Counted from the first letter of the stretch, positions 24,001-60,096 are shown. The stretch: 64,000 nt of DNA from an uncultured Acidimicrobiales bacterium (GCA_937922805.1 CALAJV010000001.1:98560-162559), one strand, 5' to 3'. Numbers and translations: made by a program. Notes: generated by a model not told the origin, from the sequence alone.

Positions 24001-24797
24001 ATCGCCACCTGGGCCCATTCGAAATCAAACCGCTCAGAACGACCGTGTTTCTCCCAACCCTCCATGATCGCAACATCAGCCGCGGCATAGTGACCAATGG
24101 CTTTGTTGGCAACAGCTAGCTTCAGGTAGATAACCGGAGGCGCGTCGTTGTGATTGGCTAGAACCCATTTGAGCCGCTCGATTGCCTCAGTCCACTGCTG
24201 AGCTTTGATGGCGATTTGAGCGTGTTCAATATCGAGTCGCTGCAACCTACCATGCACAGCCCAGCCTTCGGCGATGGCCTTGTCTGCCCCATCAAAATCC
24301 CCAAGGTCACTCTTGGCTATGGCAAGCTTGACATAGGCCACCGGGGGCAACTTTTCCGTGGTACTGGTGAGTTCTTCCAGCCGTGATGCAGCTGCGCCCC
24401 AATCTCGTTGCTTCATAGCGATATCGGCCCATTCCACCGCAATGATCGATGAATCCGGGAAACGGGCCCGACCAGCGAGAATCACTACCTCAGCACCATC
24501 AAGGTCGCCTTGTTCCCGGTGGGCTATCGACACCCACACATACAGCTGCGGAGTTACATCAACATGGTCGAGCAATGGCGTTAGCCGTTCCACCACTTCC
24601 GACCATTGCTGGTCACGAAACGCCGCCTCGGCCGCGGCGACATCCGAACCATTAGAGGTTGGACCTTGTTTTTGGCCATCGGCTCCCGGATCATCCTGAG
24701 CTTGGCTTCGCCGCCCGAACTTCCGGATCTTCATCACAGGCAAAGGCTTTCGTTCGACGCTTTTTTCTCGACCACTAAAACTTGATAAGACGGCCAC
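21090..24797 (-). CDS. 1235-aa protein with N-terminal TPR/Sel1-like tandem repeats and a C-terminal region resembling a GT-B-type (capsule-synthesis/KpsS-like) glycosyltransferase half
   Basis: There are at least four repeats of about 70 aa, with the pattern EWAxxAxxxxxWxEAxxRxxW...YxKLAxxxxxxGxxxxADxAIxxGWxxHGR. The C-terminus contains VVILGGKN...IYFKPKG...MFVSLSVASSAILEGLGRGIPGLV, a Rossmann-like pattern. The gene is transcribed divergently from pseB. Confidence 0.55.
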   Translation of the reverse strand: MAVLSSFSGREKSVERKPLPVMKIRKFGRRSQAQDDPGADGQKQGPTSNGSDVAAAEAAFRDQQWSEVVERLTPLLDHVDVTPQLYVWVSIAHREQGDLDGAEVVILAGRARFPDSSIIAVEWADIAMKQRDWGAAASRLEELTSTTEKLPPVAYVKLAIAKSDLGDFDGADKAIAEGWAVHGRLQRLDIEHAQIAIKAQQWTEAIERLKWVLANHNDAPPVIYLKLAVANKAIGHYAAADVAIMEGWEKHGRSERFDFEWAQVAMSASRWVEAVRRFEWLIGHYGELDSVVYIKLAICRFKAGNLIGADRAIYSGWTALGHQIELDLEWAALAKKAKNSADVVSRYRTVIERHGHAVGADSYVAFAQGLAAEGSRDEAIEVLHQTSEAFRHDGLALIELANVLLQVRNYSEAASYLEAAIKRDPAVDPRVYGRLAHVYRSDGKYNKAKEICRLAVEQWPSSAGSLSRWAQEAMIENDWPTALKRWQDLVTSEDERNAEKFDNDQLLPLVTLPEKAADLEWHEGHWRRFADSWVAGNGGAVSASATLYLALADVLIRVGSGSRALAILRQGVAVYPRHARLKYRLALFTLEASKPIVGQPSGIPVWSTLPESMANQALRDEIQAMEVSFAAAAPISRVRPTMEYRQFNVCQETSLELLVKGGRFFSANVVEERIRLQSEAELWPEMPQGSVPLEREALELANEFRSRFESQTDLAGPMLTEAVFRLIYAELCVREPVRRLAASIAKEAGTDPVFVELSGKPIEYMSSFTPTEIGQFYLYRELYRLGANVFFCCFVNQRSDPYQWNELNSLVLRPSPVLLRSRGTTKEVDKENTEVAVVPAGIRSIQTVVDELVDPLVYASGYVIQGLAYDRTTFEPLDLSATFLPPRSLLPVFKYDYDTVAWFESSDLVGANETSQTQLGLTVPIEGDWLDWLGEMLLPSLNEMYELCVAEVDLRQVKQAHVADNLYMETTVFAAAVSSRGGNVTLWPHSANPVDVQARHRDTFDRVNAVTQVGCETWKARFPDVEVAHRPDLMLDTPTMQLIDPNEPLSVVILGGKNTLGLMPFVHQSQHEVAYNKFFNGLEQLKNDCNIEIYFKPKGLSGENEAWLDRVIDGSVEWKTVVEHPLRLALPNMMFVSLSVASSAILEGLGRGIPGLVVAEALARDYTTIDGSSISSGSCAEIVEMVRRCALPGGLEELLASQWPYYRSQTGYHAPIIDLGVTPSTPSPQVNFAGR

Positions 24798-24877
24798 GTT
24801 ACCAGTCTCTTGCTGAGTTATGGTTACATTTCAGTGCATCAATAGACGCATGTTCGCCGCCGCTTGGAGATATCGCT

Positions 24878-25882
24878 TTGTTCGATAACAAGACCATTCT
24901 AGTTACCGGTGGTACCGGTTCATTTGGAAGACAATTCACCGAAACCATATTGAATCGGTACTCACCAGCCAAGATCATCATCTACAGCAGAGACGAACTA
25001 AAGCAGTTTGAGATGCAGTCGACCGAGCCGTTTGCCTCTAATAAGGGGGTTTTGCGGTGGTTTATCGGCGACGTGAGGGATGAACCCCGATTGCGGATGG
25101 CGATGGAAGGGGTCGACTACGTTGTCCACGCCGCTGCCCTCAAACAGGTACCAGCCGTCGAATACAACCCGTTTGAGGCAGTCAAGACCAATATAATTGG
25201 CGCAGAAAACATTATTAATGCTTGTATGAGCAGCAACGTGCATCGCGTTATAGCGTTAAGCACAGATAAGGCCGCTGCACCAATAAATCTTTATGGTGCA
25301 ACAAAGTTGGCGTCGGACAAGTTGTTCATCGCCGCCAACAATCACCGCGGGTCACGCGACATTCGCTTTTCAACCGTTCGGTACGGCAACGTGATGGGCA
25401 GTCGAGGCTCGGTCATCCCCTTCTTCCAGAAGAAGGCCACGTCCGGAGTTATTCCGGTAACCGATGAACGAATGACGCGCTTCAACATCACGCTCCAACA
25501 AGGGGTCGATTTCGTAATCTCATGCTTCGATCGAATGTGGGGCGGTGAAACGTTCGTGCCGAAGATTCCTTCTTATCGAATCCTCGACGTCGCCGAAGCC
25601 GTCGACCCAAACGCCGCGGTCAAAACTGTGGGTATACGCCCCGGCGAAAAACTACACGAAGAGATGATTACTCGAACCGATTCACTCATGACAGTCGAGT
25701 TCGACGACTACTTCGTGATCCTTCCATCATCGGAACAATGGAACGTCGATGACTTCCGCCGAGATAGCGGGTCGAGCAAAGGCCGCTCGGTCAAAGACGG
25801 TTTCAACTACAGCAGCGACAAAAACCCTGACTTCTTGACCGTTGAAGACATTCGCGCCCTGATCGAATCGGAACTGCGGTAA
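24878..25882 (+). CDS. pseB: UDP-N-acetylglucosamine 4,6-dehydratase (inverting)
   Basis: FDNKTILVTGGTGSFG, IIIYSRDELKQ, FIGDVRD, HAAALKQVP, ALSTDKAAAPINLYGATKL, VRYGNVMGSRGSV. The track ORF starts at 24782, which would overlap the divergent gene. The in-frame TTG at 24878 gives the canonical N-terminus. Confidence 0.85.
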   Translation: MFDNKTILVTGGTGSFGRQFTETILNRYSPAKIIIYSRDELKQFEMQSTEPFASNKGVLRWFIGDVRDEPRLRMAMEGVDYVVHAAALKQVPAVEYNPFEAVKTNIIGAENIINACMSSNVHRVIALSTDKAAAPINLYGATKLASDKLFIAANNHRGSRDIRFSTVRYGNVMGSRGSVIPFFQKKATSGVIPVTDERMTRFNITLQQGVDFVISCFDRMWGGETFVPKIPSYRILDVAEAVDPNAAVKTVGIRPGEKLHEEMITRTDSLMTVEFDDYFVILPSSEQWNVDDFRRDSGSSKGRSVKDGFNYSSDKNPDFLTVEDIRALIESELR

Positions 25883-27036
25883 TGTCCTACGTTCCGTATG
25901 GACGTCAAGTAATTGACGAAGATGACATAGCCGCTGTTGCTGATGTACTGCGGGGCGATTGGCTTACTACCGGACCAATGGTCGACGCTTTCGAAGCCGC
26001 CTTCTCATCGTTCGTAGATGCCGACTACGGCGTGGCAGTAAGTAACGGCACCGCAGCGCTACATCTGGCGATGTTGGCGGCAAACGTGGGTCCGGGGGAC
26101 GAAGTCATCGTTGCCGCGCTGACGTTTGCTGCGAGCGCCAATTGCGCTAGGTACGTTGGCGCCGATGTCGTCTTTGCTGATGTGGACGAAAAGACCTTGA
26201 CTATCGACACCGATCACGTTGCGTCGCTGATAACCGAACGAACAAAGGCAATCGTTGCTGTTGACTACGCCGGAATCCCTTGTGATTTGGATGAGCTTCT
26301 GGCTCTAGCGAGCGTTCACGATTTGGTCCTCATCGAGGATGCTTGCCACGCTCCAGGCGCTCAGTACAAAGGCCGCCCGGTCGGATCCATCGCTCACATG
26401 TCAACGTTCAGCTTTCACCCGGTCAAACACCTGACCACCGGTGAGGGCGGCATGGTTACGACCAATGACCCAGAGCTGGCGAATCGGGTTCGCAAGCTTC
26501 GAAGCCATGGAATCAGTACCGACTTCCGGGAGCGAGTTGAACAAGGAACTTGGGCCTATGACATGGTCGAGCTCGGATTCAACTACCGACTACCTGACTT
26601 GAACTGCGCTCTTGGACTATCCCAGCTTGAGAAGATGACCGGCTGGATTGATCGGCGGCAGCAGTTGGTCGCTAACTACAATCTGGCATTCGAAAAATTG
26701 GATCACGTTCGCACCCCAAGCCATCCCGACGACCGGGTCAGCACCTGGCACCTATACCCGTTTCGATTTACCGGCGAAGACGCCAACACGCTCCGGTCCG
26801 AAATGTTCGATCGGCTGCGAGCCGAAGGCATCGGGGTCAATGTTCACTACCTCCCGGTGTACTGGCACAGCTACTACCAAGGGTTGGGTTACAAACGAGG
26901 GCTTTGCCCCAAGGCCGAAGCGGCGTACGGCGGATTGCTTTCACTGCCAATGTGGCCTGGGCTTTCCGATCAATCCCAGAACCGCGTTATCGAGACTCTG
27001 ATCTCGAACTGTGAGGATCTCTTTGCTCTCCGATGA
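25882..27036 (+). CDS. pseC: UDP-4-amino-4,6-dideoxy-N-acetyl-beta-L-altrosamine transaminase (DegT family)
   Basis: The N-terminal PYGRQVIDEDDI...GDWLTTGPMV is characteristic of PseC. The FSFHPVKHLTTGEGG segment holds the PLP lysine. Its ATG overlaps the pseB stop by 1 nt. Confidence 0.85.
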   Translation: MSYVPYGRQVIDEDDIAAVADVLRGDWLTTGPMVDAFEAAFSSFVDADYGVAVSNGTAALHLAMLAANVGPGDEVIVAALTFAASANCARYVGADVVFADVDEKTLTIDTDHVASLITERTKAIVAVDYAGIPCDLDELLALASVHDLVLIEDACHAPGAQYKGRPVGSIAHMSTFSFHPVKHLTTGEGGMVTTNDPELANRVRKLRSHGISTDFRERVEQGTWAYDMVELGFNYRLPDLNCALGLSQLEKMTGWIDRRQQLVANYNLAFEKLDHVRTPSHPDDRVSTWHLYPFRFTGEDANTLRSEMFDRLRAEGIGVNVHYLPVYWHSYYQGLGYKRGLCPKAEAAYGGLLSLPMWPGLSDQSQNRVIETLISNCEDLFALR

Positions 27037-27742
27037 GTTATCCCCGACCGTAGCGATTGTTCCGGCCCGGGCTGGAAGTAAACGGATTCCAGGCAAGAAC
27101 ATCAAGCCGTTCTTGGGCACACCGTTGATCTCTCGAACAATCGAGACGCTTCGCAAGTCTCAAATCTTCGACCGCATCGTCGTATCTACCGACGGGGTAG
27201 ATATTGCCGAGATAGCGACCGCAGCCGGCGCCGATGTACCGTTCGTCCGGCCAGCAGATCTGTCTGACGACTACGCCACAACCGACGCAGTGATTCGCCA
27301 CGCAATCCAGCAGGTGGAAGCCGAAGGAACGACGCTTGGATTTGTATGTGTTGCGTACCCCGGTGCCATCTTGTCGACTGCCGACGATTTTCGTCGCTCC
27401 TATGAACTTATCCGTGGCGACGAATACGATTTCGTTTTTACCGCAACCAGCTTTCCATACCCAATTCAACGGGCGCTAAAGCGGCATAGTGACGGTTCTT
27501 GTGAGATGTTTGAACCGGCCGAGCTGCTAACTAGATCACAAGATCTAGAAGAGGCGTTTCATGACGCCGGACAGTTCTACTGGGGTCGAAGAGACGCGTG
27601 GGCATCGGGCAAAGCCGTATTCACGAGCCGGTCGCTGATGTATGAACTTCCCCGCCATCGGGTTCAAGACATTGACACCCCACAAGACTGGGAGCGGGCT
27701 GAGCTTCTCTATCGACTGCTGGAGTTATCTGATGTCAACTGA
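27011..27742 (+). CDS. pseF: Pseudaminic acid cytidylyltransferase (CMP-sugar synthetase family)
   Basis: VAIVPARAGSKRIPGKNIKPFLGTPLI and IVVSTD motifs. It overlaps the end of pseC. The exact start is uncertain (GTG 27011 or TTG 27023). Confidence 0.8.
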   Translation: MRISLLSDELSPTVAIVPARAGSKRIPGKNIKPFLGTPLISRTIETLRKSQIFDRIVVSTDGVDIAEIATAAGADVPFVRPADLSDDYATTDAVIRHAIQQVEAEGTTLGFVCVAYPGAILSTADDFRRSYELIRGDEYDFVFTATSFPYPIQRALKRHSDGSCEMFEPAELLTRSQDLEEAFHDAGQFYWGRRDAWASGKAVFTSRSLMYELPRHRVQDIDTPQDWERAELLYRLLELSDVN

Positions 27743-28910
27743 GCTGTTCTCTTTAACTGGCACAACGGTTGTTCCTCTACCTGGCGCGTTCTTGGCTCCG
27801 GTGCTACCGAGCGATGCGACGCTTCTCATTCGGTCCGACGCTTCTCACCACATCGGTGCCGGGCACATCATGCGGTGTGTTGCCCTTGCTCAGGAATGGG
27901 CGTTTCGAGGCGGCACCGTACTGGTTGCCTCGAACGAACTAACAGAGTCGACCCAGTCCAAGTTGGATGCCAACAACATCGTGTCGATACATGTAGGGCC
28001 CAGCGGACAAGACTTCCGAGAACTAGCCGACGAAATCGGTCCGACCTGGATCGTGCTCGACGTTGGCGTAGCGGTACATGAACACTTAGCCGCCATTGGC
28101 GATGCCTACGATGTCTTGGCCATCGATGACCTTGGCGGCCGGTTTGCGACTAGCCCTACGCTCGTACTCAATCAGAATGCTCACGGGCCATCAACCCCCT
28201 ACGCTGGCATCCAGCCAAACAAGTTGTTGCGGGGCCTTGAGTACATTTTGCTTCGAGACGAGTTTTTGGATGAACAGCCTTCGGTTTGCGGCACCGAACC
28301 AACTGTTCTCGTTGCCATGGGTGGAACCGACCCGTTGCAACTACTCCCCGATCTAATCGACTCCCTCGCTTCCAGCTCAAAAGCAAAGATCTTGGCTGTT
28401 GCCAGCTCCCACCACCCCCAGCTCAATCGACTGGAAGAACTCAACCAGGGCCACCAACGAGTTGAGCTTCACCTCGATGTTTCAAACATGGCCCAGCTTA
28501 TGAAGCAGTGCGACCTAGCTCTGACCTCGGGTGGGACGACCGTTTGGGAACTGGCTTATCTCGGCATACCTTCTGTCGTGGGAGCGGTAGCCGAGGTTGA
28601 AGATCGCCTTTTAGACGGCTTGAATCGGATCGATTTGTTCGAAACGATTGGACCGCTCGAAAACAAGACTGCTGAAGCCATCGCCGAGATCGTATTGCAA
28701 GTTGAGCAGGATCAAGAGTGGCTCAAAGCCACACGGACAAAAGCCCAAGAGATAGTGGATGGACACGGGCGACTCCGCGTTCTAGATCGGATGACATCTG
28801 CATCTCGCCTGGCCGACCTTCCTATCGACTCTTCCATCAACGACCGACCAAACGGTCCAGATGTTGAGGCCCAATCGGCGATGAACAACACCGCCGTTAC
28901 CAGCTCCTAG
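27732..28910 (+). CDS. pseG: UDP-2,4-diacetamido-2,4,6-trideoxy-beta-L-altropyranose hydrolase
   Basis: LLIRSDASHHIGAGHIMRCVALAQEW is the PseG N-terminal signature. C-terminal SGGTTVWELAYLGIP fits a GT-B/MurG-like fold. The ATG at 27732 overlaps the pseF stop (ATGTCAACTGA), and the track's upstream extension to 27642 is unlikely. Confidence 0.75.
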   Translation: MSTELFSLTGTTVVPLPGAFLAPVLPSDATLLIRSDASHHIGAGHIMRCVALAQEWAFRGGTVLVASNELTESTQSKLDANNIVSIHVGPSGQDFRELADEIGPTWIVLDVGVAVHEHLAAIGDAYDVLAIDDLGGRFATSPTLVLNQNAHGPSTPYAGIQPNKLLRGLEYILLRDEFLDEQPSVCGTEPTVLVAMGGTDPLQLLPDLIDSLASSSKAKILAVASSHHPQLNRLEELNQGHQRVELHLDVSNMAQLMKQCDLALTSGGTTVWELAYLGIPSVVGAVAEVEDRLLDGLNRIDLFETIGPLENKTAEAIAEIVLQVEQDQEWLKATRTKAQEIVDGHGRLRVLDRMTSASRLADLPIDSSINDRPNGPDVEAQSAMNNTAVTSS

Positions 28911-28992
28911 GCCGCCGGCGGCCTACTAGCTACTTCTGTTACTTACCTACTCGTCATATTTCTAGTTCAAGAGCAAAATTGATCGGAGCACA

Positions 28993-29943
28993 ATGGTTAA
29001 CAAACCAAGAGCCTTGGTTACCGGCGCGGCCGGTGTGATCGGGCGTCAGCTGACCAAGCGTCTACTGAACGACGGCCACGAGGTGATGGCCATCGACCGC
29101 AAGGTCATGCCAGATTTGGATTGGGGCAAACTTGAGTTCATTCAAGGCGACCTGTCCGAAATGGACCTGTCTGAGGCAGAGAAGTTTCAGCCCGAGGCCG
29201 TGTTCCACTTGGCTGCATCGTTCGAACGATCCGAGGAGTCGGCCGAGTACTGGGATATCGGCTGGCGCGACGACGTTGTTTCGTCTCACCGGGTTATCGA
29301 TTCTCTGGCTCGATCAGCTCATACCAGAACTTTTGTCTTTGCTTCCAGCTATTTAACCTACGAACCATCCCTGTACCTGTTCGATGCCCCCAACGACAGT
29401 CCGGCGTCGCTGAACGAAATCGACCGGGTAAGCCCTCGCAATCTTTGTGGAGCAGGCAAGTACTACACCGAACAAGAGCTGGCCTACGTTACCAACACCA
29501 CTCGACCCGACCTTCGGGTCGTCAACGCCCGCATCTACCGGGTATACGGCAAAGGGTCCCGCGACGTTATTTCCCGATGGATCGAAGCAGGACTGGCCGG
29601 AGAAACGATCGAGGTTTACAACAAGTCCAACCGATTCGACTACGTCTTCGCTGACGACGTCGCTGAGTCACTTCATCGCCTCCAGCAACAGAGCGAAGCA
29701 AGCGGTGTGTACAACATTGGTACCGGGTCGACCTCTTCTATCTCTGAGGTGGTCGAAGCGCTGAAACAAGCCGAAGTGCTGTCCCCGTCCCAAATTGTCG
29801 AGCAAGGGGAATCAGCACCGTTCGAAGCAAGCAAAGCTGACGTACGTAGGCTTCGCGAAGATATCGGCTGGACGCCTCCTACTACGCCGCTAGAGGGCAT
29901 CCGCCAAATCTCAGCGGCGTTGCAAGGAGCGGACCTTGTCTAA
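28993..29943 (+). CDS. NAD-dependent epimerase/dehydratase family protein (extended SDR)
   Basis: N-terminal Rossmann motif LVTGAAGVIGRQL. About 316 aa, typical of sugar-nucleotide epimerases and reductases. Confidence 0.75.
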   Translation: MVNKPRALVTGAAGVIGRQLTKRLLNDGHEVMAIDRKVMPDLDWGKLEFIQGDLSEMDLSEAEKFQPEAVFHLAASFERSEESAEYWDIGWRDDVVSSHRVIDSLARSAHTRTFVFASSYLTYEPSLYLFDAPNDSPASLNEIDRVSPRNLCGAGKYYTEQELAYVTNTTRPDLRVVNARIYRVYGKGSRDVISRWIEAGLAGETIEVYNKSNRFDYVFADDVAESLHRLQQQSEASGVYNIGTGSTSSISEVVEALKQAEVLSPSQIVEQGESAPFEASKADVRRLREDIGWTPPTTPLEGIRQISAALQGADLV

Positions 29944-30901
29944 GACCCGCTCTAATGAACAATCGCCAAGCCCAACCAGCTCTGGAGTCGAGGAGTCAGT
30001 TGTGATCAGTGAAACGGCGGAGGTAGTAGTCGACCCCGAGTGGGGCTACATTCGCCTGAACCCAATTCCGGCCGAGGACGATCTCGCCGCCTTCTACCAG
30101 AGTTCCTACTACGACTCGTTAAGGCAGGGCAACCGAGCCCCGGATCTGAGTCGGATGCAACAGGGTGGTCCAGAAGCCGAGCGAGAACGAGCGTGGATTT
30201 GCGAAACGGTGCATCACGACATCATCGAATGGGCGGTGACCTATCACGGGGAGACTGGCTGTGTCCTGGAAGTAGGATCGGGCGGAGGCGAACTTCTTGA
30301 TTCGTTCGCGGCCCAAGGGTGGACCGCCAAAGGCTTAGAGCCTGCGGCTCAGGCCGCCGAGAACTGCCGGGCTCGAGGGTTGGATGTTCAAGCGCTAACG
30401 CTTGAACAATATCTGACTCAGATCTCCCCAAATGACGTGGACATTGATGTCGTGGTTCTTCGACTAGTTCTTGAACACGTGCGGAACCCAATCGAGCTGT
30501 TGCAAAACTGTCACCAGGCACTTAGGACCGGGGGCCTGCTGATAGTTGAGGTACCGAACGACTTTAACGGGTTCCAAAAAGCAGCCCAGGCCAAACTCGA
30601 TCTCGATCAATGGTGGGTGGCGAGTCCGGACCATGTCAACTATTTCGACTTTGACTCTCTGTCCAACATCTTGGAGCGAATCAGTTTCGACATCGTCGAC
30701 CGGACGACCAGTTTCCCAATGGAGCTATTTCTTCTCATGGGTGACAACTACGTCGGAGACTCCGACGTAGGATCGGCCTGCCACGAACGCAGGCGAAGTC
30801 TTGAGCTAAACATGCCTCATCGAGTTCGACAAGAGTTCTACCGGGCACTAGCGGGAGCAGGGATGGGACGGACCTGCCGGATCGCCGCGGTGGCGAAATG
30901 A
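29936..30901 (+). CDS. Class I SAM-dependent methyltransferase
   Basis: SAM-binding motif VLEVGSGGGELLD and post-I acidic residue pattern. It overlaps both neighbouring genes. Confidence 0.75.
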   Translation: MSKTRSNEQSPSPTSSGVEESVVISETAEVVVDPEWGYIRLNPIPAEDDLAAFYQSSYYDSLRQGNRAPDLSRMQQGGPEAERERAWICETVHHDIIEWAVTYHGETGCVLEVGSGGGELLDSFAAQGWTAKGLEPAAQAAENCRARGLDVQALTLEQYLTQISPNDVDIDVVVLRLVLEHVRNPIELLQNCHQALRTGGLLIVEVPNDFNGFQKAAQAKLDLDQWWVASPDHVNYFDFDSLSNILERISFDIVDRTTSFPMELFLLMGDNYVGDSDVGSACHERRRSLELNMPHRVRQEFYRALAGAGMGRTCRIAAVAK

Positions 30902-31857
30902 ACGTTCTTATTACCAGTGCGTCCAGAAAGGTCTCGCTTGTCGATTCTTTTTCGGAAGCGTTGGGCGGCAGGGGAAACGTTATTGCCGCTGACATCACCC
31001 AGTGGGCCGCAGCAATGCATGTTGCTGACCAATCGGTGATCGTGCCTAGGAGCGACTCCGGCGACTTTGTAAAAGCGATTCTCGAAATCTGCGAGGAACT
31101 GAACGTTGGTCTGGTAATCCCAACTCGGGACGAAGAGCTGCCGATCCTGGCCAAGGCCATCGACGATTTCACTGCGATAGGCACCCGAGTTCACGTTTCG
31201 TCACCGCAATCGATAGCTTCGTGCTTGGACAAACGAGCCTTTCACCAATTCTGCCTGGAGCATGGCTTTGCTATCCCCACCGTCGTAGCCGACCCAGGAG
31301 CGACTAATGCTCCCCTATTTGTTCGACCCCGATTCGGCAAAGGCAACACCGGAACCTACGCGGTTCAAACCCCAAGCGAATTAGCACAACTTCAACAACA
31401 GTGGCCGACGATTGCCGACGCAGTAGTTGTAAACCATCTAATGGACGCGCCAGAATTCACCATTGATGTGTTCTTGGCTTTGGACGGCGTAGCCACGTCG
31501 GCTGTGCCCCGAGAGCGGATGCAAGTAGTGGCGGGTGAGAGCTACGTTGGGCGGACGGTTAACGATCCCGAGCTCGCAGCCGAATCGATCCGGCTGTGCC
31601 AAATGATGGGTTTGACCGGCCACAACACGGTCCAGGCTTTCCGAACTCCAAACGGTTTCGAGTTCATCGAGGTAAATCCCCGGTTCGGTGGCGGAGCCGC
31701 CCTGAGCATGGCGGCCGGAGCCCCAAGCCCTCGCTGGCTGATTCAAGAAACCGCTGGCATACCGTTTGATCCGGCGCCCGGGTCGTTCCAGCCTGAGCTT
31801 GTCATGTTGCGTTACACCCGAGATGTTTGGATATCTGAGTCGGAGCTGGCCCAATGA
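30898..31857 (+). CDS. ATP-grasp domain protein
   Basis: Pre-ATP-grasp N-terminus (MNVLITSASRKVSLV...GLVIPTRDEEL). Central DKRAFHQFCLEHGFAIP...FVRPRFGKG. C-terminal FIEVNPRFGGG is typical of ATP-grasp ligases. ATGA overlaps on both sides. Confidence 0.7.
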   Translation: MNVLITSASRKVSLVDSFSEALGGRGNVIAADITQWAAAMHVADQSVIVPRSDSGDFVKAILEICEELNVGLVIPTRDEELPILAKAIDDFTAIGTRVHVSSPQSIASCLDKRAFHQFCLEHGFAIPTVVADPGATNAPLFVRPRFGKGNTGTYAVQTPSELAQLQQQWPTIADAVVVNHLMDAPEFTIDVFLALDGVATSAVPRERMQVVAGESYVGRTVNDPELAAESIRLCQMMGLTGHNTVQAFRTPNGFEFIEVNPRFGGGAALSMAAGAPSPRWLIQETAGIPFDPAPGSFQPELVMLRYTRDVWISESELAQ

Positions 31858-32666
31858 CCGCTACCAGCCAAAGCAACCCAATTCCTCGGTCAACCGATCG
31901 AGTTGGAACCAAGCAGGGATCTATTCACGACCGCGACCTTTATCGCCGCCGAACCGGCGATCGGCCAGTTGTTGAATCAGTCATCTTTGACCTCGACGAC
32001 ACCTTATATAACGAAATGACATTCGTTATAGGCGCCTTCACCGAGGTAGCAGTCTTCCTTGCTCAGCGAACCGGACTTGAAGCCAAGACACTTCTTGATC
32101 ATCTGCTGATGATCGAGCGGCGAGACGGTCGAGGTCAAGTATTCGAAACACTGCTGGCCAGCTACTCGCTCAACCCGAAATGGGCCAAAGCGATGCTAGC
32201 GACCTACCGTTCAGCCGTCCCACCACTGTCGTTTTTTGCCGACACGACTGCTCTTTTGACGTCGTTGTCAGCCGCCGGCATTCCGACCGCGGTTGTTACC
32301 GACGGATACGGCCTCGTACAGGCAAACAAAGCGGCCGGTCTTCATCTCGACACGCACGTTGATGCCATTGTTTATACCGACAGCCTGGGTCACGGTGGGG
32401 CCAAGCCAGGAACCGCCGGTTTCGAAACTGCATTAGCCATGATCGGCAGCGAGGAATCAACCTCTGCATATGTCGGCAACGACGTGACGAAAGACTTCAT
32501 AGGGCCACGACAACTTGGGATGCAGTCGGTCTTGATCAACCGCAAAACAATCGGCCGGGTCGAAGACCAACCAGCCTTTGCCCACCCAGACCACATCGTG
32601 CCCACGTTGTCTGATCTTCCCCGCGTTCTGAAATTCAAATCACCGCTCGATAGGAGAACAGCATGA
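31854..32666 (+). CDS. HAD-superfamily hydrolase
   Basis: Motif I VIFDLDDTLY, motif II VVTDG and a motif IV-like YVGNDVTKD. ATGA overlaps on both sides. Confidence 0.7.
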   Translation: MTATSQSNPIPRSTDRVGTKQGSIHDRDLYRRRTGDRPVVESVIFDLDDTLYNEMTFVIGAFTEVAVFLAQRTGLEAKTLLDHLLMIERRDGRGQVFETLLASYSLNPKWAKAMLATYRSAVPPLSFFADTTALLTSLSAAGIPTAVVTDGYGLVQANKAAGLHLDTHVDAIVYTDSLGHGGAKPGTAGFETALAMIGSEESTSAYVGNDVTKDFIGPRQLGMQSVLINRKTIGRVEDQPAFAHPDHIVPTLSDLPRVLKFKSPLDRRTA

Positions 32667-33721
32667 AAATCAACCAGCGAATCATCGACATTGATGAACC
32701 GATGTACATTATTGCCGAACTGTCGGCGAACCACGGTCAGGACCTCGACGTCGCCCTCGAAATGATCGAGGCCGCTGCTGCTTGCGGCGCCGACGCGGTC
32801 AAGCTCCAAACCTACACCCCAGACACCATCACGCTGGACGTCGCCGATGGCCCATTTTTGATTGAAGAAGGTTCGTTGTGGGCCGGACGATCGCTCCATG
32901 ACCTCTATCAAGATGCCTACACACCGTGGGACTGGTTTCCGACCTTGGCCGATGCCGCCAGCAAAGCTGGAGTGGACATTTTCTCAAGCCCGTTCGACCT
33001 AACCGCTGTTGCCTTCCTAGAAGGCCAAGACGTTCCAGCGTTCAAGATTGCGTCGTTTGAACTCGTCGATCACGCGCTTATTCGAGCAGTGGCCAACACC
33101 GGAAAGCCGATGATCATGTCAACCGGCATGGCTACGCTCTCTGAGATCGCCGAGGCGGTACAGGTTGCACGCGCTGCTGGCTGTAGCGATCTTGCCCTTT
33201 TGCGGTGCAACTCGGGCTATCCGACTCCGTTAACCGAAATGGATTTGCGAACGATCCCGAGCATGATATCGACCTTTGATTGCCCGATCGGTTTGTCCGA
33301 TCACACCGACGGCATTGAAGCGGCCATCGTCGGTCGAACTCTGGGCGCTTGCATTCTCGAAAAACACTTTGTCCTCGATCGGTCATCTGGCGCTCTCGAT
33401 GCAGAATTCTCCCTCGAACCAGATGAATTCGCGGCCATGGTTACCGGTATTCGACGAACCGAGGAGATGCTCGGCGCCGTTCGGTATGGGCCGACGGCTC
33501 GCGAGAAACATTCGCATGTCCACCGACGTTCACTTTTCGTGGCCGAAGATGTGCGCAAGGGTGAGACCTTCACCGATGCCAACGTTCGTTCGGTCCGTCC
33601 TGGTCAGGGTTTGGCGCCCAAGTTTCTGCCGATCGTCCTCGGATCCACGGCAACTCGGGATCTGAAGAAGGGCACGCCGGTTTCGTGGGAAGCCTTGTCG
33701 GGGGAACCGCTAACTTCATAA
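32663..33721 (+). CDS. pseI: Pseudaminic acid synthase
   Basis: IIAELSANHGQDL, GADAVKLQTY, FSSPFD, PAFKIASFE, GKPMIMSTGMATLSEI and LLRCNSGYPTP, plus a C-terminal SAF-like domain. Confidence 0.85.
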   Translation: MKINQRIIDIDEPMYIIAELSANHGQDLDVALEMIEAAAACGADAVKLQTYTPDTITLDVADGPFLIEEGSLWAGRSLHDLYQDAYTPWDWFPTLADAASKAGVDIFSSPFDLTAVAFLEGQDVPAFKIASFELVDHALIRAVANTGKPMIMSTGMATLSEIAEAVQVARAAGCSDLALLRCNSGYPTPLTEMDLRTIPSMISTFDCPIGLSDHTDGIEAAIVGRTLGACILEKHFVLDRSSGALDAEFSLEPDEFAAMVTGIRRTEEMLGAVRYGPTAREKHSHVHRRSLFVAEDVRKGETFTDANVRSVRPGQGLAPKFLPIVLGSTATRDLKKGTPVSWEALSGEPLTS

Positions 33722-33886
33722 CGCCGCTCGGTGTTAAACAACCGAGCTGGGAAAACCGTCCTACTTTCGAATAGCCTTACGCCGTAGGATTGGGAATCGA
33801 CCTCAGCTACACTGGACTTGGGTCGGATCACTGGTCAGGCCTGTACGCAAGCAAAAATGCGATTGCTAGGTGGGATTAGCAGCGTT

Positions 33887-35074
33887 ATGTCAACAGACAG
33901 ATTTTCAATCTTTTTCGGTTGCGCAGTAGATCAAGTTCGGCGACCGTTTCACAATCGAAAACCGACGCAATCTATACTGTCGTTGGTTCTGATCGCCGCG
34001 TTCGGACTCGTTCTTGGTGCGTGTGCAGGCCCATTGTTTTCCGGTGGCGATGGGGTTCAGGATAATTTGGAACCACCAACGAGATCCGTGGTTACCGGAC
34101 CCATTGCCAGCCAAAGCGATGTCCCCACCCCAATCTCAGCGTTTTCTACCTCCGCCATCCGCAACACATCTACTGAAGTCACAGATAGGAGCGGGACGTT
34201 TCACCGGGCTGGGATACAGCACCAACAGAACCAGGAATGGGAACAAGCAATTCGTAGCTATACCAAAGCAATAAACGAGAACCCGGCCCACCCTGACGCC
34301 TATTTCAATCGCGGCTCGGCCAACCAGGTGCTCGGCAGACATGGCGCTGCTATTACCGACTTCAGCGCCCATATTCGGCTCAACCCCACCGACCCAAGAG
34401 CATTCAACAACCGGGGACTGTCCAACCAAGCTCGTGCTAGCTACACCGATGCGCTTCAAGACTTCAACCAAGCTTTGCGACTCGATCCAACGCTGGCAGC
34501 GGCCTACGCCAACCGGAGCCAATCACTGTTCTGGCTCGATGAATTCGAAATGGCACGCATCGATCTTGAACTGGCGATCAGTTCTGGCGCCGACCATCCA
34601 GACATTTACTTCAACCTCGGCTTACTCCACTATTCGATGGGCCAACCCGACGAGGCACTATCTAGCTACGGTCGAGCGTTATCTCTTGCTCCTGACGCTC
34701 CGTGGATTTTCCACGAACGAGGCCTGATCTATTTCGAGATGGGAGATCTTCCAAAGGCGCAGTTAGACCTTGAAGCAGCCATCTCGCTCGACCCCAAAAA
34801 TCCCAAGCCTCACTATGATCTTGGCCTACTCCAGCATCATCAGGGACAAACCAAGCCGGCGATTGGCAAATATACGGTGGCGCTCCAACTTGATCCATAT
34901 CATTGGGACGCTCGACAGAACCGGGCAGTCGCCTACGCTGCGACTAAACAGAACCAGCGAGCAATCCAAGATCTTGACCGGCTTCTGGGCAACTCTGAGT
35001 TGTCCGATTCTGCCCGAGCCGAGATCGACCAGTGGATCGCTACCCTCGAGGCTGGTCAAAATCCATTCTCGTAA
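33887..35074 (+). CDS. TPR-repeat lipoprotein
   Basis: Lipobox GLVLGAC-AG. Eight or more canonical 34-aa TPR units (AxxxYxxAIxxNPxxxxAYxNRG pattern). The ATG at 33887 is preferred, while the track ORF begins at 33818. Confidence 0.7.
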   Translation: MSTDRFSIFFGCAVDQVRRPFHNRKPTQSILSLVLIAAFGLVLGACAGPLFSGGDGVQDNLEPPTRSVVTGPIASQSDVPTPISAFSTSAIRNTSTEVTDRSGTFHRAGIQHQQNQEWEQAIRSYTKAINENPAHPDAYFNRGSANQVLGRHGAAITDFSAHIRLNPTDPRAFNNRGLSNQARASYTDALQDFNQALRLDPTLAAAYANRSQSLFWLDEFEMARIDLELAISSGADHPDIYFNLGLLHYSMGQPDEALSSYGRALSLAPDAPWIFHERGLIYFEMGDLPKAQLDLEAAISLDPKNPKPHYDLGLLQHHQGQTKPAIGKYTVALQLDPYHWDARQNRAVAYAATKQNQRAIQDLDRLLGNSELSDSARAEIDQWIATLEAGQNPFS

Positions 35075-35152: not shown

Positions 35153-36268
35153 ATGATTCTTGACTCCTTAGATGTCAGCCAAGACGCGTTTGAGACCGGA
35201 ACCGGTTGGGAGATCAAACCTGAAGGAGCGTGCAAGGGCGACGTTTGTATTCCGCTACCCTCGCCGCCCGAAGCGGGCCGAGTTGACGTTGAATCGATCG
35301 CCGACCAAATGGGCCTTCCACTAGTGGGCGACCCAGAGCGTTCTGTTTGGGCCCTTGGTCCCGAGTCAGTCGGCGCCCGAACTTTGTTGAGCGCACAGGC
35401 CCCAGAGCTACGGTTGCCCGATCTAAACGGCAACCAATTCACTCTTTCGTCTTTACGAGGATCCAAGGTGGTAATGGTGGCATGGAGCCCCTATTGAGGA
35501 TGCTCTGCTGATCTGCCCGTGTGGCAGGCCTTTCGCGAAGACGTCGCCGACCAAGGCGTCGAGATAGTAACCGTGGCATTAGAAACGACTGGGGCAGAGG
35601 CGTGCCGGCAATTCATTGAAGCCGCCAATCCCGCTCACCCATCGCTGATCGACCAGTATCATAAATCGGCCGAACTGTTCGGCTTCGTCAATATCCCGAA
35701 TGCAGTCTGGATCGATGAAGACGGCATGATCGTTCGACCGTCGGAGCCTGCTCCCGCTCCACCGTCAATGAAAGCGGACCGACCGAACATTTTCGCCGAC
35801 CTTGTTCCGCCCCAGCGCCTGCTCGACATCATGGGCGAGGCCGTCAAAATTCGATCCAACCCGGCGGCCTACGAAGCGGCGTTACGGGATTGGTTCACCA
35901 ACGGTAGTCAAAGCCAATTCGCCATGACCCCGGATGAGGTAGTCAATCGATCGCAGCCTCGCAGCGCTGACGAAGCACGGGGCCAGGCCAACTTCGAACT
36001 TGCGGCCCATTTCGAAGCGAACGGCGATCACGATGCCGCCATTCCCTACTATCGAGAAGCGCATCGGCTGACCCCTGAAAACTTCAGCTATCGACGTCAG
36101 GCGTGGTCGCTAGAACCCAACGAACTTGATGGTCCAGTGGCCAGATTTTGGCAGGGTCCAGCCGTTGGAGCAGAAGACGCCTGGCCCTACGAAGGTGACT
36201 GGCTAAGCGACGTTAAAGCCATGGGGGCCGAAAACTACTATCCAGAGTTCAAGGCCGAACAGGCCTAG
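35153..36268 (+). CDS. Thioredoxin-fold (ResA/redoxin-like) protein with in-frame UGA at the redox motif, a candidate selenoprotein (alternatively a split or pseudogenised gene)
   Basis: ORFs 35153-35497 and 35519-36268 share one frame and are separated only by TGA at 35495-35497. Read through, the sequence is KVVMVAWSPY-[TGA]-GCSADLPVWQAF...VEIVTVAL...IPNAVWIDEDGMIVR, a complete redoxin fold with the stop at the position of the nucleophilic Cys. Confidence 0.55.
35512..35528 (+). other. Hairpin downstream of the in-frame UGA (bacterial SECIS-like)
   Basis: tctgcc-cgtgt-ggcagg forms a 6-bp stem (including one G-U pair) with a 5-nt loop containing GU. It starts 14 nt after the TGA. Confidence 0.4.
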
Positions 36269-50045: not shown

Positions 50046-50323
50046 GGCCGCCGGCCGAAGAGCTCCGACAGTCAGCAGATTGTCGTTCTATCTGAAGGAG
50101 TCCGAGCACTAACTTTCCAGCCGTGCTCGCAATTGGGCGGCGAAAGCGGTAACTGGGTAGCCTCCCCGACCATCTGAGTTACCCGACGGTTACGCCATAC
50201 TGTTTGCCGTCAGGGCATTGGTACAAGCCCGAGCCCATCTCAACGCAAGCCAAAGGCATCATCACTAGATTTTCCGGTGGTGTAATTTTGACAACCGAAT
50301 ATTACCGGCCCTACATTTCGGTG

Positions 50324-59939: not shown

Positions 59940-60004
59940 GAACAATGCCCAGCAACCATGCTGCCCAACTCCTGACTCGCCGCCCGACGCTGAGCCCAAG
60001 CAAC

Positions 60005-60040
60005 CCAATGGGTTGCCGCAGTCCAATGGGTTGCCGCAGC
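60005..60040 (+). repeat. Tandem duplication of an 18-nt unit in the glcE-glcF spacer
   Basis: ccaatgggttgccgcagt / ccaatgggttgccgcagc. The first copy forms a palindrome with the preceding gcaaccc (gcaaccc-aat-gggttgc, 60000-60016). Confidence 0.85.
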
Positions 60041-60096
60041 TTCGCAAAACCTATTGGTCGGCCCAACGTGAAACTGGAGGAGCTTGAAAGGTTCCC

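What the first reader, a model, noticed from the sequence alone, without database searches (positions are those of the whole stretch)
28993..32666. Four-gene tailoring block (SDR epimerase/dehydratase, SAM methyltransferase, ATP-grasp ligase, HAD hydrolase) inserted between pseG and pseI
The block is embedded in the operon by overlapping start and stop codons, so it is co-translated with the core pathway. An ATP-grasp ligase could attach an amino acid or carboxylic acid to a free amino group, which would replace the missing PseH acetylation. The methyltransferase and the HAD phosphatase could further modify the acyl group or the sugar. Pse derivatives with non-acetyl N-acyl groups are known in other bacteria. 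This particular enzyme combination suggests a derivative I cannot assign.
Basis: inference. Interest (0 to 1): 0.6.

Follow-up and report, generated by a model that had tools for sequence, protein, structure and literature searches.

The report
PseH-free pseudaminic acid operon, ATP-grasp acylation
A sugar-making operon for the sialic-acid-like sugar pseudaminic acid has lost the usual acetyl-adding enzyme. In its place it carries a widely conserved ATP-driven ligase/phosphatase pair that most likely attaches a glycerate-type group, giving a testable gene candidate for a sugar decoration whose genes were unknown.

Summary
At 28993-32666 four ORFs sit between PseG and PseI of a pseB-C-F-G…I operon: an SDR-like protein, a class I SAM methyltransferase, an ATP-grasp ligase and a HAD-IA hydrolase. 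No GNAT/PseH is found anywhere in the 64-kb window.

This is not a private insertion. The order PseG-SDR-(MT)-ATPgrasp-HAD-PseI recurs in dozens of loci from Chloroflexota, Nitrospirota, Acidobacteriota, Myxococcota, Bacteroidota, Omnitrophota and Methanobacteriaceae.

- **Core:** the ATP-grasp/HAD pair is the core. Natural fusions exist (AG-HAD, phosphoglycosyltransferase-AG-HAD, SDR-AG, PseI-AG).
- **Position:** in non-Pse loci the pair sits where the N-acetyltransferase of 4-amino-4,6-dideoxy-HexNAc pathways normally sits.
- **Precedent:** Neisseria PglB2 has the same architecture (phosphoglycosyltransferase/ATP-grasp) and puts a glyceramido group in place of acetamido. GATDH-making N. oralis also has a HAD gene in its pgl locus.
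- **Accessory genes:** the MT and the SDR are optional. The SDR lacks the catalytic Tyr (C/T/V) in all orthologues, so its role is unresolved.

Best reading: a PseH-independent route to an N7-acyl pseudaminic acid, most likely N7-glyceroyl and here probably methylated. The acyl identity is inferred, not shown. This is a new variant of a known kind, of moderate to good interest.

The parts
24782..25882 (+). pseB (UDP-GlcNAc 4,6-dehydratase, inverting); start codon uncertain, since the family match begins at aa 34
   Evidence: TIGR03589 518 bits, cutoff 407.75
25882..27036 (+). pseC (aminotransferase that creates the free 4-amino group)
   Evidence: TIGR03588 465 bits, cutoff 423.5; TAATG overlap with pseB
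27011..27742 (+). pseF (CMP-pseudaminic acid synthetase)
   Evidence: TIGR03584 290 bits, cutoff 205.7
27732..28910 (+). pseG (UDP-sugar hydrolase); the ORF is open from 27642, the likely ATG is at 27732
   Evidence: TIGR03590 159.6 bits, cutoff 153.55; start candidates
28908..28925 (+). GC-rich hairpin (7-bp stem, 4-nt loop) overlapping the pseG stop codon, inside the 82-nt pseG-SDR gap; no T-run; function unknown
   Evidence: fold; whole-gap z-score not significant; no promoter or terminator call there
28993..29943 (+). Atypical extended SDR (GalE/MoeE5-like fold). GxxGxxG is present and K156 is invariant, but the catalytic Tyr is replaced by C152. It is an accessory partner of PseG and the ATP-grasp.
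   Evidence: PF01370 7e-35; PDB alignments to MoeE5 and GalE place C152 at the Tyr position; orthologues have C23/T17/V5 there; natural SDR-AG fusion P0449 is 43% identical and keeps PRNLCGAAK
30002..30901 (+). Class I SAM-dependent methyltransferase. An alternative TTG start at 29936 would overlap the SDR stop. Optional member of the cassette.
   Evidence: Methyltransf_23 2e-24; present in 24 of 51 loci; start analysis
30898..31857 (+). ATP-grasp carboxylate-amine ligase (PRK12767 'carbamoyl phosphate synthase-like' family); proposed N-acylase of the PseC product
   Evidence: Pfam/NCBIfam; PDB 2pn1 1e-32; AF2 pLDDT 89.8, with fold neighbours biotin carboxylase, PurK, PurT and PylC; E258/N260/R262 and other motifs invariant; synteny and fusions
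31854..32666 (+). HAD-IA phosphatase, obligate partner of the ATP-grasp; DxDxT motif FDLDDTLY at aa 45-52
   Evidence: HAD_2 4.5e-15; 30% identity and E 4e-20 to the HAD domain of the triple fusion P0203; AG-HAD fusions P0358, P0368, P0456
32663..33721 (+). pseI (pseudaminic acid synthase), translationally coupled to the HAD gene (ATGA)
   Evidence: TIGR03586 471 bits, cutoff 340.25; PseI-AG fusion P0488 exists elsewhere
33724..33750 (+). Hairpin just after the pseI stop; possible operon end
   Evidence: fold, z = -1.7; not called as a terminator

Best explanation
The nine genes pseB-pseC-pseF-pseG / SDR-MT-ATPgrasp-HAD-pseI encode a PseH-independent route to a CMP-activated pseudaminic acid that carries a non-acetyl group on N7.

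**Proposed steps**
1. PseB and PseC make UDP-4-amino-4,6-dideoxy-β-L-AltNAc. These family assignments pass curated cutoffs.
2. The ATP-grasp enzyme activates a small carboxylic acid as an acyl phosphate and transfers it to the 4-amino group, in place of the acetyl-CoA-dependent PseH. This is inferred from context, fusions and the PglB2 precedent.
3. The acid is most likely 3-phosphoglycerate. Alternatively it is glycerate released from phosphoglycerate by the HAD. Either way, the HAD phosphatase step leaves an N-glyceroyl (glyceramido) group. This step is inferred.
4. PseG, PseI and PseF then hydrolyse the UDP, condense with PEP and add CMP. The product is Pse5Ac7Gra (calculated C14H24N2O10, 380.14 Da).
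5. The methyltransferase, present in about half of related loci, probably O-methylates the glyceroyl group or a sugar hydroxyl (+14.02 Da). This is a weak inference.
6. The Tyr-less SDR works with the ATP-grasp and PseG in an unresolved role: either redox or epimerisation on the acyl side chain, or handling of the UDP-sugar.
For: **Pathway frame**
- PseB, C, F, G and I all pass curated cutoffs.
- There is no GNAT in the window.

**Conserved synteny**
- Identical or near-identical gene orders without room for PseH occur in Chloroflexus sp. MS-G (L015), Methanobacteriaceae (L010, L018, L027), a deltaproteobacterium (L034), Polyangiaceae (L013), Bacteroidaceae (L030) and many Nitrospirota and Chloroflexia MAGs.
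- Only about 6 of 150 unassigned ORFs within 8 kb of the AG gene, across 51 loci, have a GNAT domain.

**Coupling by fusion**
- AG-HAD fusions: P0358, P0368, P0456.
- Bac_transf-AG-HAD fusion: P0203, encoded next to a DegT aminotransferase.
- Dozens of Bac_transf-AG fusions.
- Glycos_transf_4-AG, SDR-AG (P0449) and bona fide PseI-AG (P0488, TIGR03586 423 bits) fusions.

**Slot replacement**
- Priestia plasmid L085 reads dehydratase-aminotransferase-PGT-AG-HAD, with no acetyltransferase.
- Segatella L086 and Ensifer L082 are similar.

**Orthology of the pair**
- Window AG versus P0203: 29% identity, E 5e-41.
- Window HAD versus P0203: 30% identity, E 4e-20.
- 48 of the 76 positions that are at least 90% conserved in Pse-linked AGs are identical in PGT-linked AGs.

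**Literature**
- Neisseria PglB2 (ATP-grasp/phosphoglycosyltransferase) makes 4-glyceramido-2-acetamido-trideoxyhexose where PglB (acetyltransferase/PGT) makes diNAcBac (PMC11130364, PMC6959607).
- GATDH-producing N. oralis has a HAD hydrolase and a formyltransferase gene in its pgl locus (PMC6959607). This matches the formyltransferase-AG-HAD order in Ensifer.

**Chemistry**
- Fold neighbours include PurT, an ATP-grasp that joins a small acid (formate) to a sugar-phosphate-borne amine.
- N7-glyceroyl Pse exists in nature, and its genes are unknown (PMC5378307, PMC6388019).
Against: - There is no biochemical evidence for any step.
- I could not obtain a PglB2 sequence. That its ATP-grasp domain belongs to this same subfamily rests on shared architecture and the Pfam-type description only.
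- Pse-linked and PGT-linked AGs are only about 30% identical and differ at conserved charged positions (R77I, E79T, K148S). The acid could therefore differ.
- A PseH-like GNAT sits inside two related operons (L064, L060; weak TIGR03585 hits of 32-35 bits against a cutoff of 93). One AG-GNAT fusion exists (P0363). Replacement of PseH is therefore not universal.
- PseH could be encoded elsewhere in this genome.
- The model gives the SDR no necessary role.
- Several of the single-copy fusions sit on short metagenomic contigs and could be assembly or frameshift artefacts.
Confidence: 0.5

Rival explanations
1. Same mechanism, different acyl group. The ATP-grasp N-acylates the 4-amino group with another acid, such as O-phosphoserine (giving N-seryl after HAD action), phosphoglycolate or glycolate, lactate, formate or an amino acid. 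The MT (N- or O-methyl) and, where present, a GNAT then cap that acyl group.
For: - Pse-linked AGs form their own subfamily with charged-residue switches relative to PGT-linked AGs.
- The AG-GNAT fusion P0363 and GNATs in L064/L060 would fit acetylation of an amino-acyl side chain.
- A distant AG in E. coli plasmid pLAU-OXA3 sits with DegT, a GNAT and a PLP enzyme but no HAD. This shows the wider clade uses other acids.
- HAD domains give weak hits to phosphoglycolate phosphatase models.
- C. botulinum Leg5GluNMe7Ac shows that amino-acyl plus N-methyl NulOs exist (PMC13317340).
Against: - The only genetically defined product of a PGT-ATP-grasp protein is glyceramido (PMC11130364).
- The strict AG-HAD pairing, with no extra acid-supplying enzyme, fits a central phosphorylated metabolite such as 3-phosphoglycerate.
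Confidence: 0.27
2. The cassette does not replace PseH. PseH is encoded elsewhere, and AG-HAD modify another position. One option is amidation of the C1 carboxylate with an amino-alcohol phosphate that the HAD then dephosphorylates, like the C. jejuni capsule amidoligase/HAD system (recalled from memory). Other options are action on N5 or a hydroxyl, at the Pse or CMP-Pse stage.
For: - GNATs co-occur with the cassette in a few loci, and there is one AG-GNAT fusion.
- The PseI-AG fusion would also suit a late-acting enzyme.
- Roseibium has AG-HAD beside an EPS locus with no visible amino-sugar genes.
- Only 64 kb of this genome is visible.
Against: - PseH-less compact operons recur in 51 loci from many phyla, with only about 6 GNAT ORFs among 150 neighbours.
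- AG is fused to or adjacent to phosphoglycosyltransferases and DegT aminotransferases, exactly where PglD/PglB-type acetyltransferases sit.
- No amine-supplying PLP enzyme is present in the block.
- I know of no C1-amidated Pse.
Confidence: 0.15
3. The four genes are unrelated passengers that make a separate metabolite and merely sit between pseG and pseI.
For: - The names given by sources are generic ('carbamoyl-phosphate synthase large subunit', 'ATP-grasp domain-containing protein').
- An 82-nt gap with a hairpin separates pseG from the block.
Against: - Synteny with PseG and PseI is conserved across bacterial phyla and archaea.
- ATGA coupling runs through to pseI.
- PseI-AG, SDR-AG and AG-HAD fusions exist.
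Confidence: 0.03

Closest known systems
Neisseria PglB2 (phosphoglycosyltransferase/ATP-grasp) with its associated ORF, which makes GATDH (4-glyceramido-2-acetamido-2,4,6-trideoxyhexose) instead of diNAcBac
   Same: - An ATP-grasp domain replaces an acetyltransferase on the 4-amino group of a UDP-4-amino-4,6-dideoxy-HexNAc.
- Homologues of the window's ATP-grasp occur in exactly this fused architecture (Bac_transf + PylC-like_N/ATP-grasp), once also with the HAD.
- A HAD hydrolase gene lies in the pgl locus of GATDH-making N. oralis (PMC6959607).
   Different: - Here the enzyme is free-standing and feeds PseG/PseI/PseF to make a nine-carbon nonulosonate, not an Und-PP-linked hexose.
- The sugar is L-altro-configured rather than D-gluco.
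- An atypical SDR and an MT are added.
- Sequence relatedness to PglB2 itself was not tested.
- PglB2 has not itself been biochemically dissected, according to the reviews read.
Canonical CMP-pseudaminic acid pathway (PseB, C, H, G, I, F of Campylobacter/Helicobacter; also T. forsythia)
   Same: Five of the six enzymes are present and pass curated family cutoffs. The operon logic is the same.
   Different: - PseH (a GNAT) is absent.
- Four extra genes lie between pseG and pseI.
- The predicted product is not Pse5Ac7Ac.
Naturally occurring N-glyceroyl pseudaminic acids: Pse5Am7Gra of Tannerella forsythia, a 7-N-glyceroyl Pse in Vibrio vulnificus LPS, and 2,3-di-O-methylglyceroyl Pse of C. jejuni 11168
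   Same: These have the chemistry predicted here (a glyceroyl group on a Pse nitrogen, optionally O-methylated). Their genetic basis is stated to be unknown (PMC5378307, PMC6388019).
   Different: - T. forsythia has an active PseH and makes Pse5Ac7Ac in vitro.
- No AG/HAD link to these organisms could be shown. A search with a Bacteroidaceae AG returned no Tannerella-named hit (inconclusive).
PurT (formate-dependent GAR transformylase) and PylC
   Same: ATP-grasp enzymes that join a small carboxylate to an amine through an acyl phosphate. They are among the nearest characterised fold neighbours.
   Different: 14-21% identity, unrelated pathways, and no HAD partner.
Shewanella oneidensis sfmABCDE flagellin-modification operon (PseI-like SfmA, methyltransferase SfmD, ATP-grasp_4 protein SfmE)
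   Same: A NeuB-like synthase, an MT and an ATP-grasp ligase cooperate in making a modified nonulosonate (PMC3765264).
   Different: - The ATP-grasp family differs (ATP-grasp_4, 412 aa).
- There is no HAD.
- TPP and ACP-reductase enzymes are present.
- PseG, PseH and PseF orthologues are lacking there.
PDB 2pn1 (Exiguobacterium 'carbamoylphosphate synthase large subunit, split gene in MJ')
   Same: Closest solved relative of the ATP-grasp (E 1e-32; TM-score 0.82).
   Different: A structural-genomics entry with no assigned function.

Membership tests
CMP-pseudaminic acid biosynthesis locus | PseB, PseC, PseG, PseI and PseF are present | tested here: met
   TIGR03589, TIGR03588, TIGR03590, TIGR03586 and TIGR03584 are all above their curated cutoffs
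CMP-pseudaminic acid biosynthesis locus | PseH (GNAT N-acetyltransferase, TIGR03585) is present | tested here: not met
   No GNAT in the 51 ORFs scanned or in the six-frame phmmer search. This covers the window only.
PglB2-type glyceramido-forming module | A catalytically intact ATP-grasp domain | tested here: met
   Pfam ATP-grasp_3/ATPgrasp_Ter; E258-x-N260, R262 and the G264-G265 loop invariant; confident AF2 model with ATP-grasp fold
PglB2-type glyceramido-forming module | Same family as ATP-grasp domains fused C-terminally to a Bac_transf phosphoglycosyltransferase | tested here: met
   Dozens of fusions of 520-575 aa carry the same Pfam set; window AG versus P0203 gives E 5e-41; 48 of 76 conserved positions are shared
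PglB2-type glyceramido-forming module | Direct sequence relatedness to Neisseria PglB2 itself | not testable with these tools
Architecture known from the literature only (PMC11130364).
PglB2-type glyceramido-forming module | Takes the place of the N-acetyltransferase in a 4-amino-4,6-dideoxy-HexNAc pathway | tested here: met
   PseH-less operons; Priestia L085 and Logan L087 contexts
PglB2-type glyceramido-forming module | The product carries an N-glyceroyl group | not testable with these tools
   Needs MS/NMR or an enzyme assay
Extended SDR nucleotide-sugar epimerase/dehydratase (GalE-like) | Rossmann GxxGxxG motif and overall fold | tested here: met
   TGAAGVIG motif; PF01370 covers the full length; aligns end to end with MoeE5 and GalE
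Extended SDR nucleotide-sugar epimerase/dehydratase (GalE-like) | Catalytic Ser-Tyr-Lys triad (YxxxK) | tested here: not met
   The Tyr position is C152 (C, T or V in all 45 orthologues). K156 and S118/S119 are kept. Not filed as a canonical epimerase/dehydratase.
HAD-IA phosphatase | Motif I DxDxT, plus motifs II-IV | tested here: met
   FDLDDTLY, TDG, KP and GND..KDF are conserved in orthologues and in the P0203 alignment
HAD-IA phosphatase | Identity of the phosphorylated substrate | not testable with these tools
   Only sub-threshold hits to TIGR02253, RuBP 5-phosphatase and phosphoglycolate phosphatase models
Class I SAM-dependent methyltransferase | Motif I (E/DxGxGxG) and the Methyltransf fold | tested here: met
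   LEVGSGGG motif; Methyltransf_23/11/12 hits. The acceptor atom is unknown.

The most novel reading that the evidence does not exclude
A CoA-independent way of N-acylating nucleotide sugars, widespread in bacteria and methanogenic archaea. An ATP-grasp/HAD pair takes a glycolytic intermediate (3-phosphoglycerate) directly, through a 1,3-bisphosphoglycerate-like acyl phosphate, onto the 4-amino group. This defines a PseH-independent pseudaminic acid pathway. In that pathway a Tyr-less SDR performs a so far undescribed reaction on the acyl chain or the sugar, yielding a nonulosonate not yet in the structural catalogue.
Probability: 0.3. Interest if true: 0.7.

Novelty: new variant of a known kind. 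Interest (0 to 1): 0.58.

Why it matters
Nonulosonic acids decorate flagella, S-layers, capsules and LPS. Their N-acyl groups govern immune recognition, phage susceptibility and surface charge.

- **An open question becomes testable.** Which enzymes install non-acetyl groups is largely unknown. Two T. forsythia papers call the genetic basis of the N-glyceroyl group on Pse 'a major challenge'. This locus and its many relatives provide a concrete, portable two-gene candidate (ATP-grasp + HAD) and a complete nine-gene operon that can be expressed and assayed.
- **Annotation consequences.** The cassette is currently annotated as 'carbamoyl-phosphate synthase large subunit'. As a result, genome-based predictions of Pse structures silently assume Pse5Ac7Ac for Chloroflexota, Nitrospirota (including magnetotactic bacteria), Acidobacteriota and Methanobacteriaceae (including gut Methanobrevibacter).
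- **A further use.** If the chemistry is confirmed, it also offers a CoA-free enzymatic route to N-acyl variants of rare sugars.

Tried and rejected
1. **Retrieving Neisseria PglB2.** I tried to test homology directly. A concatenated PGT+AG query returned many fusions but none named Neisseria. Chamot-Rooke 2007 and Viburiene 2013 are not held.
2. **Linking the cassette to Tannerella forsythia (Pse5Am7Gra).** A search with the Bacteroidaceae AG listed no Tannerella hit. The supplements are not held. The papers only say that six ORFs inside the pse locus are 'hypothetical'. The result is inconclusive.
3. **Sinorhizobium pSymB hits.** These 71 records were suspected to be rkp-3 Pse genes. They are distant (about 26% identity, partial) and were dropped.
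4. **Structure of the SDR.** The single-sequence AF2 model was useless (pLDDT 33.6), so no fold search was made.
5. **C-terminal 636 aa of the upstream 1235-aa TPR protein.** No Pfam or PDB sequence match.
6. **Promoter/terminator scan of 24.3-35.3 kb.** Fewer hits than in shuffles, so it says nothing about sub-operons.
7. **Literature searches.** Combining pseudaminic, legionaminic or nonulosonic acid with ATP-grasp found no paper describing this cassette.
8. **Hidden PseH in the long PseG ORF.** Rejected: the extra residues are an upstream open frame and a low-complexity tail, with no GNAT signal.
9. **HAD as a nonulosonate-9-phosphate phosphatase** (as in Neu5Ac and KDN pathways). Rejected because Pse is 9-deoxy (established chemistry).

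Full report
**1. What is in the sequence**

Between 24.8 and 33.7 kb on the + strand lie nine tightly packed genes.

NCBIfam equivalog models, all above their curated cutoffs, identify five of them:
- PseB, 24782-25882, 518 bits.
- PseC, 25882-27036, 465 bits.
- PseF, 27011-27742, 290 bits.
- PseG, ORF 27642-28910 with a likely start at 27732; 159.6 bits against a cutoff of 153.55.
- PseI, 32663-33721, 471 bits.

- 28993-29943: NAD-dependent epimerase/dehydratase family.
- 29936-30901: Methyltransf_23.
- 30898-31857: PylC-like_N + ATP-grasp.
- 31854-32666: HAD_2.

The junctions were read directly. MT/ATP-grasp, ATP-grasp/HAD and HAD/PseI each share ATGA. PseB/PseC share TAATG. The SDR/MT overlap exists only if the TTG at 29936 is the start. 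A GTG at 30002 is the better candidate: it has a GAGGAG motif upstream, a gene caller on an identical metagenomic contig chose it, and it marks the point where orthologue conservation begins. It leaves a 58-nt spacer. An 82-nt gap separates pseG from the SDR gene and holds a 7-bp GC hairpin over the pseG stop codon. A consensus scan found no excess of promoters or terminators. GC content is uniform across the block and its flanks.

No GNAT domain is present in any of the 51 large ORFs of the window. None appears in any six-frame ORF of at least 60 aa when probed with five GNAT sequences. The gene content (Ser/Thr kinase-WD40, sulfatase, DUF1565, many TPR proteins) suggests a planctomycete. That is an inference only.

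**2. The block is a conserved module, not an insertion**

The ATP-grasp protein (AG) has more than 1400 relatives in the word-indexed search. At 50% clustering it has 445 representatives at E ≤ 1e-30. A scan of one genome per species returned 80 loci. I mapped the window's proteins onto them with tblastn.

- Chloroflexus sp. MS-G (L015) has exactly the window's order: PseB-C-F-G-SDR-MT-AG-HAD-PseI.
- Methanobacteriaceae (L010, L018, L027), Polyangiaceae (L013), Bacteroidaceae (L030) and many Nitrospirota have the same order without the MT.
- Acidobacteriota have it rearranged on two strands.
- Pseudomonas, Hoeflea, Nitratireductor and Denitrobaculum have a more distant version (32-36% identity).

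Among 51 loci with enough flank, PseI is within 4.5 kb of AG in 43, HAD in 41, the SDR in 33 and the MT in 24. AG-HAD is therefore the core, and the SDR and MT are independent accessories.

In the compact operons the intergenic space leaves no room for PseH. Of 150 unassigned ORFs of 110-300 aa within 8 kb of AG in 51 loci, only about six carry a GNAT domain. I tracked down four of them. Two are RimI-like. Two (L064, L060) give weak, sub-threshold PseH matches and lie inside the operon.

**3. Evidence on what AG-HAD do**

*Fusions*
- AG-HAD: P0358 (50% identical to the window AG), P0368, P0456.
- Bac_transf phosphoglycosyltransferase-AG: dozens, 520-575 aa.
- Bac_transf-AG-HAD triple fusion: P0203, encoded immediately after a DegT aminotransferase.
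- Glycos_transf_4-AG.
- SDR-AG: P0449, whose SDR half is 43% identical to the window SDR and also lacks the Tyr.
- PseI-AG: P0488, with the PseI half at 423 bits.
- AG-GNAT: P0363.

The window AG and HAD both align over their full length to P0203 (E 5e-41 and 4e-20). Several of the singleton fusions lie on short contigs and could be artefacts. The AG-HAD and PGT-AG fusions are recurrent.

*Context outside Pse loci*
- A Priestia plasmid reads dehydratase-aminotransferase-PGT-AG-HAD.
- A Segatella replicon reads PGT-AG-GT-GT-HAD-aminotransferase.
- Ensifer reads formyltransferase-like-AG-HAD-PglF-like dehydratase.

In such loci the slot next to the PGT and the aminotransferase is normally held by the PglD/PglB-type N-acetyltransferase (established knowledge of bacillosamine pathways).

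*Literature*

In Neisseria, PglB is an acetyltransferase/phosphoglycosyltransferase that makes diNAcBac. The allelic PglB2 is an 'ATP grasp/phosphoglycosyltransferase' that makes 4-glyceramido-2-acetamido-2,4,6-trideoxyhexose (PMC11130364; PMC6959607, citing Chamot-Rooke 2007). N. oralis makes GATDH glycans and has a HAD hydrolase and a formyltransferase gene in its pgl locus (PMC6959607). That mirrors the Ensifer order.

*Structure*

The AG model is confident (pLDDT 89.8). After the uncharacterised 2pn1, its nearest solved folds are biotin carboxylase, PurK, PurT and PylC. All are enzymes that phosphorylate a small carboxylate, and in PurT and PylC the activated carboxylate is passed to an amine.

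**4. Most likely mechanism**

The family assignments of the five Pse enzymes, the absence of PseH nearby, and the genetic coupling of AG with HAD, the SDR, PseI, PGTs and aminotransferases are shown.

The rest is inferred:
1. AG uses ATP to acylate the 4-amino group of the PseC product.
2. The acid is a phosphorylated C3 hydroxy-acid. The best guess is 3-phosphoglycerate, or glycerate freed from it.
3. The HAD removes the phosphate, leaving a glyceramido group that becomes N7 of pseudaminic acid.
4. The MT adds a methyl group, with the target atom unknown. The 2,3-di-O-methylglyceroyl Pse of C. jejuni, cited in PMC5378307, shows that such chemistry occurs in nature.

The predicted free-sugar masses are my own calculation: 380.14 Da (Pse5Ac7Gra) and 394.16 Da when mono-methylated. 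They are consistent with the 379.15 Da reported for Pse5Am7Gra in PMC5378307.

I put about 0.6-0.65 on 'AG-HAD is the N-acylation module that stands in for PseH' and about 0.35-0.4 on 'the acyl group is glyceroyl'.

**5. The SDR**

HMMER alignments to MoeE5 and two GalE structures put C152 at the position of the catalytic Tyr, while K156 is kept. Across 45 orthologues that position is C (23), T (17) or V (5), and never Tyr. A set of other residues is invariant: HLAAxFERS, FASSYLxY, R149-N150, R180, R183, D191, R195-W196.

It therefore fails the defining test for a canonical GalE-type epimerase/dehydratase. Because the Rossmann motif is intact, it may still bind NAD(P) and a nucleotide sugar. 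It is always next to PseG when present, and once it is fused to AG. Its reaction is unresolved, and the model above does not need it. This is the least explained part of the block.

**6. Rivals**

- **(i) Same ligation, different acid** (phosphoserine, phosphoglycolate, an amino acid). This is favoured by subfamily-specific charged-residue switches between Pse-linked and PGT-linked AGs (R77I, E79T, K148S), by the AG-GNAT fusion, and by a distant E. coli plasmid locus with AG + GNAT + a PLP enzyme and no HAD.
- **(ii) AG-HAD act elsewhere on the sugar, with PseH encoded at a distance.** This is favoured by the few GNAT-containing loci. It is disfavoured by the phylum-wide PseH-less operons and by the PGT and aminotransferase contexts.
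- **(iii) Unrelated passengers.** This is effectively excluded by the synteny and the fusions.

**7. Comparison with the known, and novelty**

The locus works like the Neisseria PglB-to-PglB2 switch transplanted into the pseudaminic acid pathway. It fails one defining feature of the canonical Pse locus, because PseH is absent.

I found no paper that connects an ATP-grasp/HAD pair with Pse, Leg or other nonulosonate N-acylation. Reviews state that NulO-modifying enzymes are scarcely known and that the genes for the N-glyceroyl group on Pse are unidentified (PMC5378307, PMC6388019). Public annotations call the enzyme 'carbamoyl-phosphate synthase large subunit' or 'ATP-grasp domain-containing protein'.

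I rate it a new variant of a known kind.

**8. Verdict**

- The finding is a good, directly testable candidate for a long-missing class of nonulosonate-tailoring enzymes.
- The chemistry remains inferential, and the SDR is unexplained.

Noticed in passing
window 21090-24797 (- strand): A 1235-aa protein is divergently transcribed from pseB. It has TPR repeats at about aa 337-586 and a C-terminal 636 aa with no Pfam or PDB sequence match. Its TPR-plus-unknown-domain build recalls FlmG-type flagellin Pse transferases (a lead from the abstract of bioRxiv 10.1101/2022.03.25.485807). It could be the glycosyltransferase that uses the operon's product.
   Followed up: partly
window 33818-35074 (+); L066 140-955: A TPR-repeat protein lies directly downstream of pseI. 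A 28%-identical relative also lies next to PseI in a Thalassobaculum MAG.
   Followed up: no
window 35153-35497 and 35519-36268 (+): Two adjacent ORFs carry the N-terminal and C-terminal halves of a weak AhpC/TSA (thioredoxin-like) match, and the second also has a TPR. This may be a frameshifted or split gene.
   Followed up: no
window 28908-28925 and 33724-33750: A perfect 7-bp GC hairpin overlaps the pseG stop codon inside the 82-nt gap before the SDR gene. A second hairpin follows the pseI stop. Neither has a T-run, and their significance is unknown.
   Followed up: partly
L002, L005, L017, L019, L053, L068 (Chloroflexia MAGs), about 2-8 kb downstream of PseI: A second, divergently oriented set lies there: a PseC-like aminotransferase, another SDR (26% identical to the window SDR) and a PseB-like dehydratase (about 40%). 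This suggests different early steps feeding the same cassette.
   Followed up: no
L024, L027, L036, L054: Two to four NeuB/PseI paralogues lie within 20 kb, which suggests several nonulosonate pathways side by side.
   Followed up: no
L030 (Bacteroidaceae) versus P0288 (Methanobrevibacter sp.): The ATP-grasp of a gut Bacteroidaceae pse locus is 61% identical to one from Methanobrevibacter. That is closer than to most bacterial relatives and may reflect inter-domain transfer in the gut.
   Followed up: no
L090 (ENA contig) 624-2150; P0363: An ATP-grasp-GNAT fusion protein is followed by the Tyr-less SDR and preceded by PseF. It shows that ligase and acetyltransferase can act in one pathway. The GNAT half does not score as PseH.
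   Followed up: partly
L088 (E. coli plasmid pLAU-OXA3, NZ_CP045280.1): A plasmid-borne O-antigen-like cluster contains RmlA/B, a flippase, a DegT aminotransferase, a GNAT, a PLP enzyme, a distant ATP-grasp (27% identical) and a GT. It is probably an amino-acyl amino-sugar pathway on an IncR plasmid.
   Followed up: no
window 50204-55849 and 57493-61242: One cluster holds a carboxyltransferase, a biotin carboxylase and AtuA (acyclic-terpene/leucine-type carboxylase). Another is a GlcDEF-like set of FAD oxidase and Fe-S genes. Both are unrelated to the finding.
   Followed up: no
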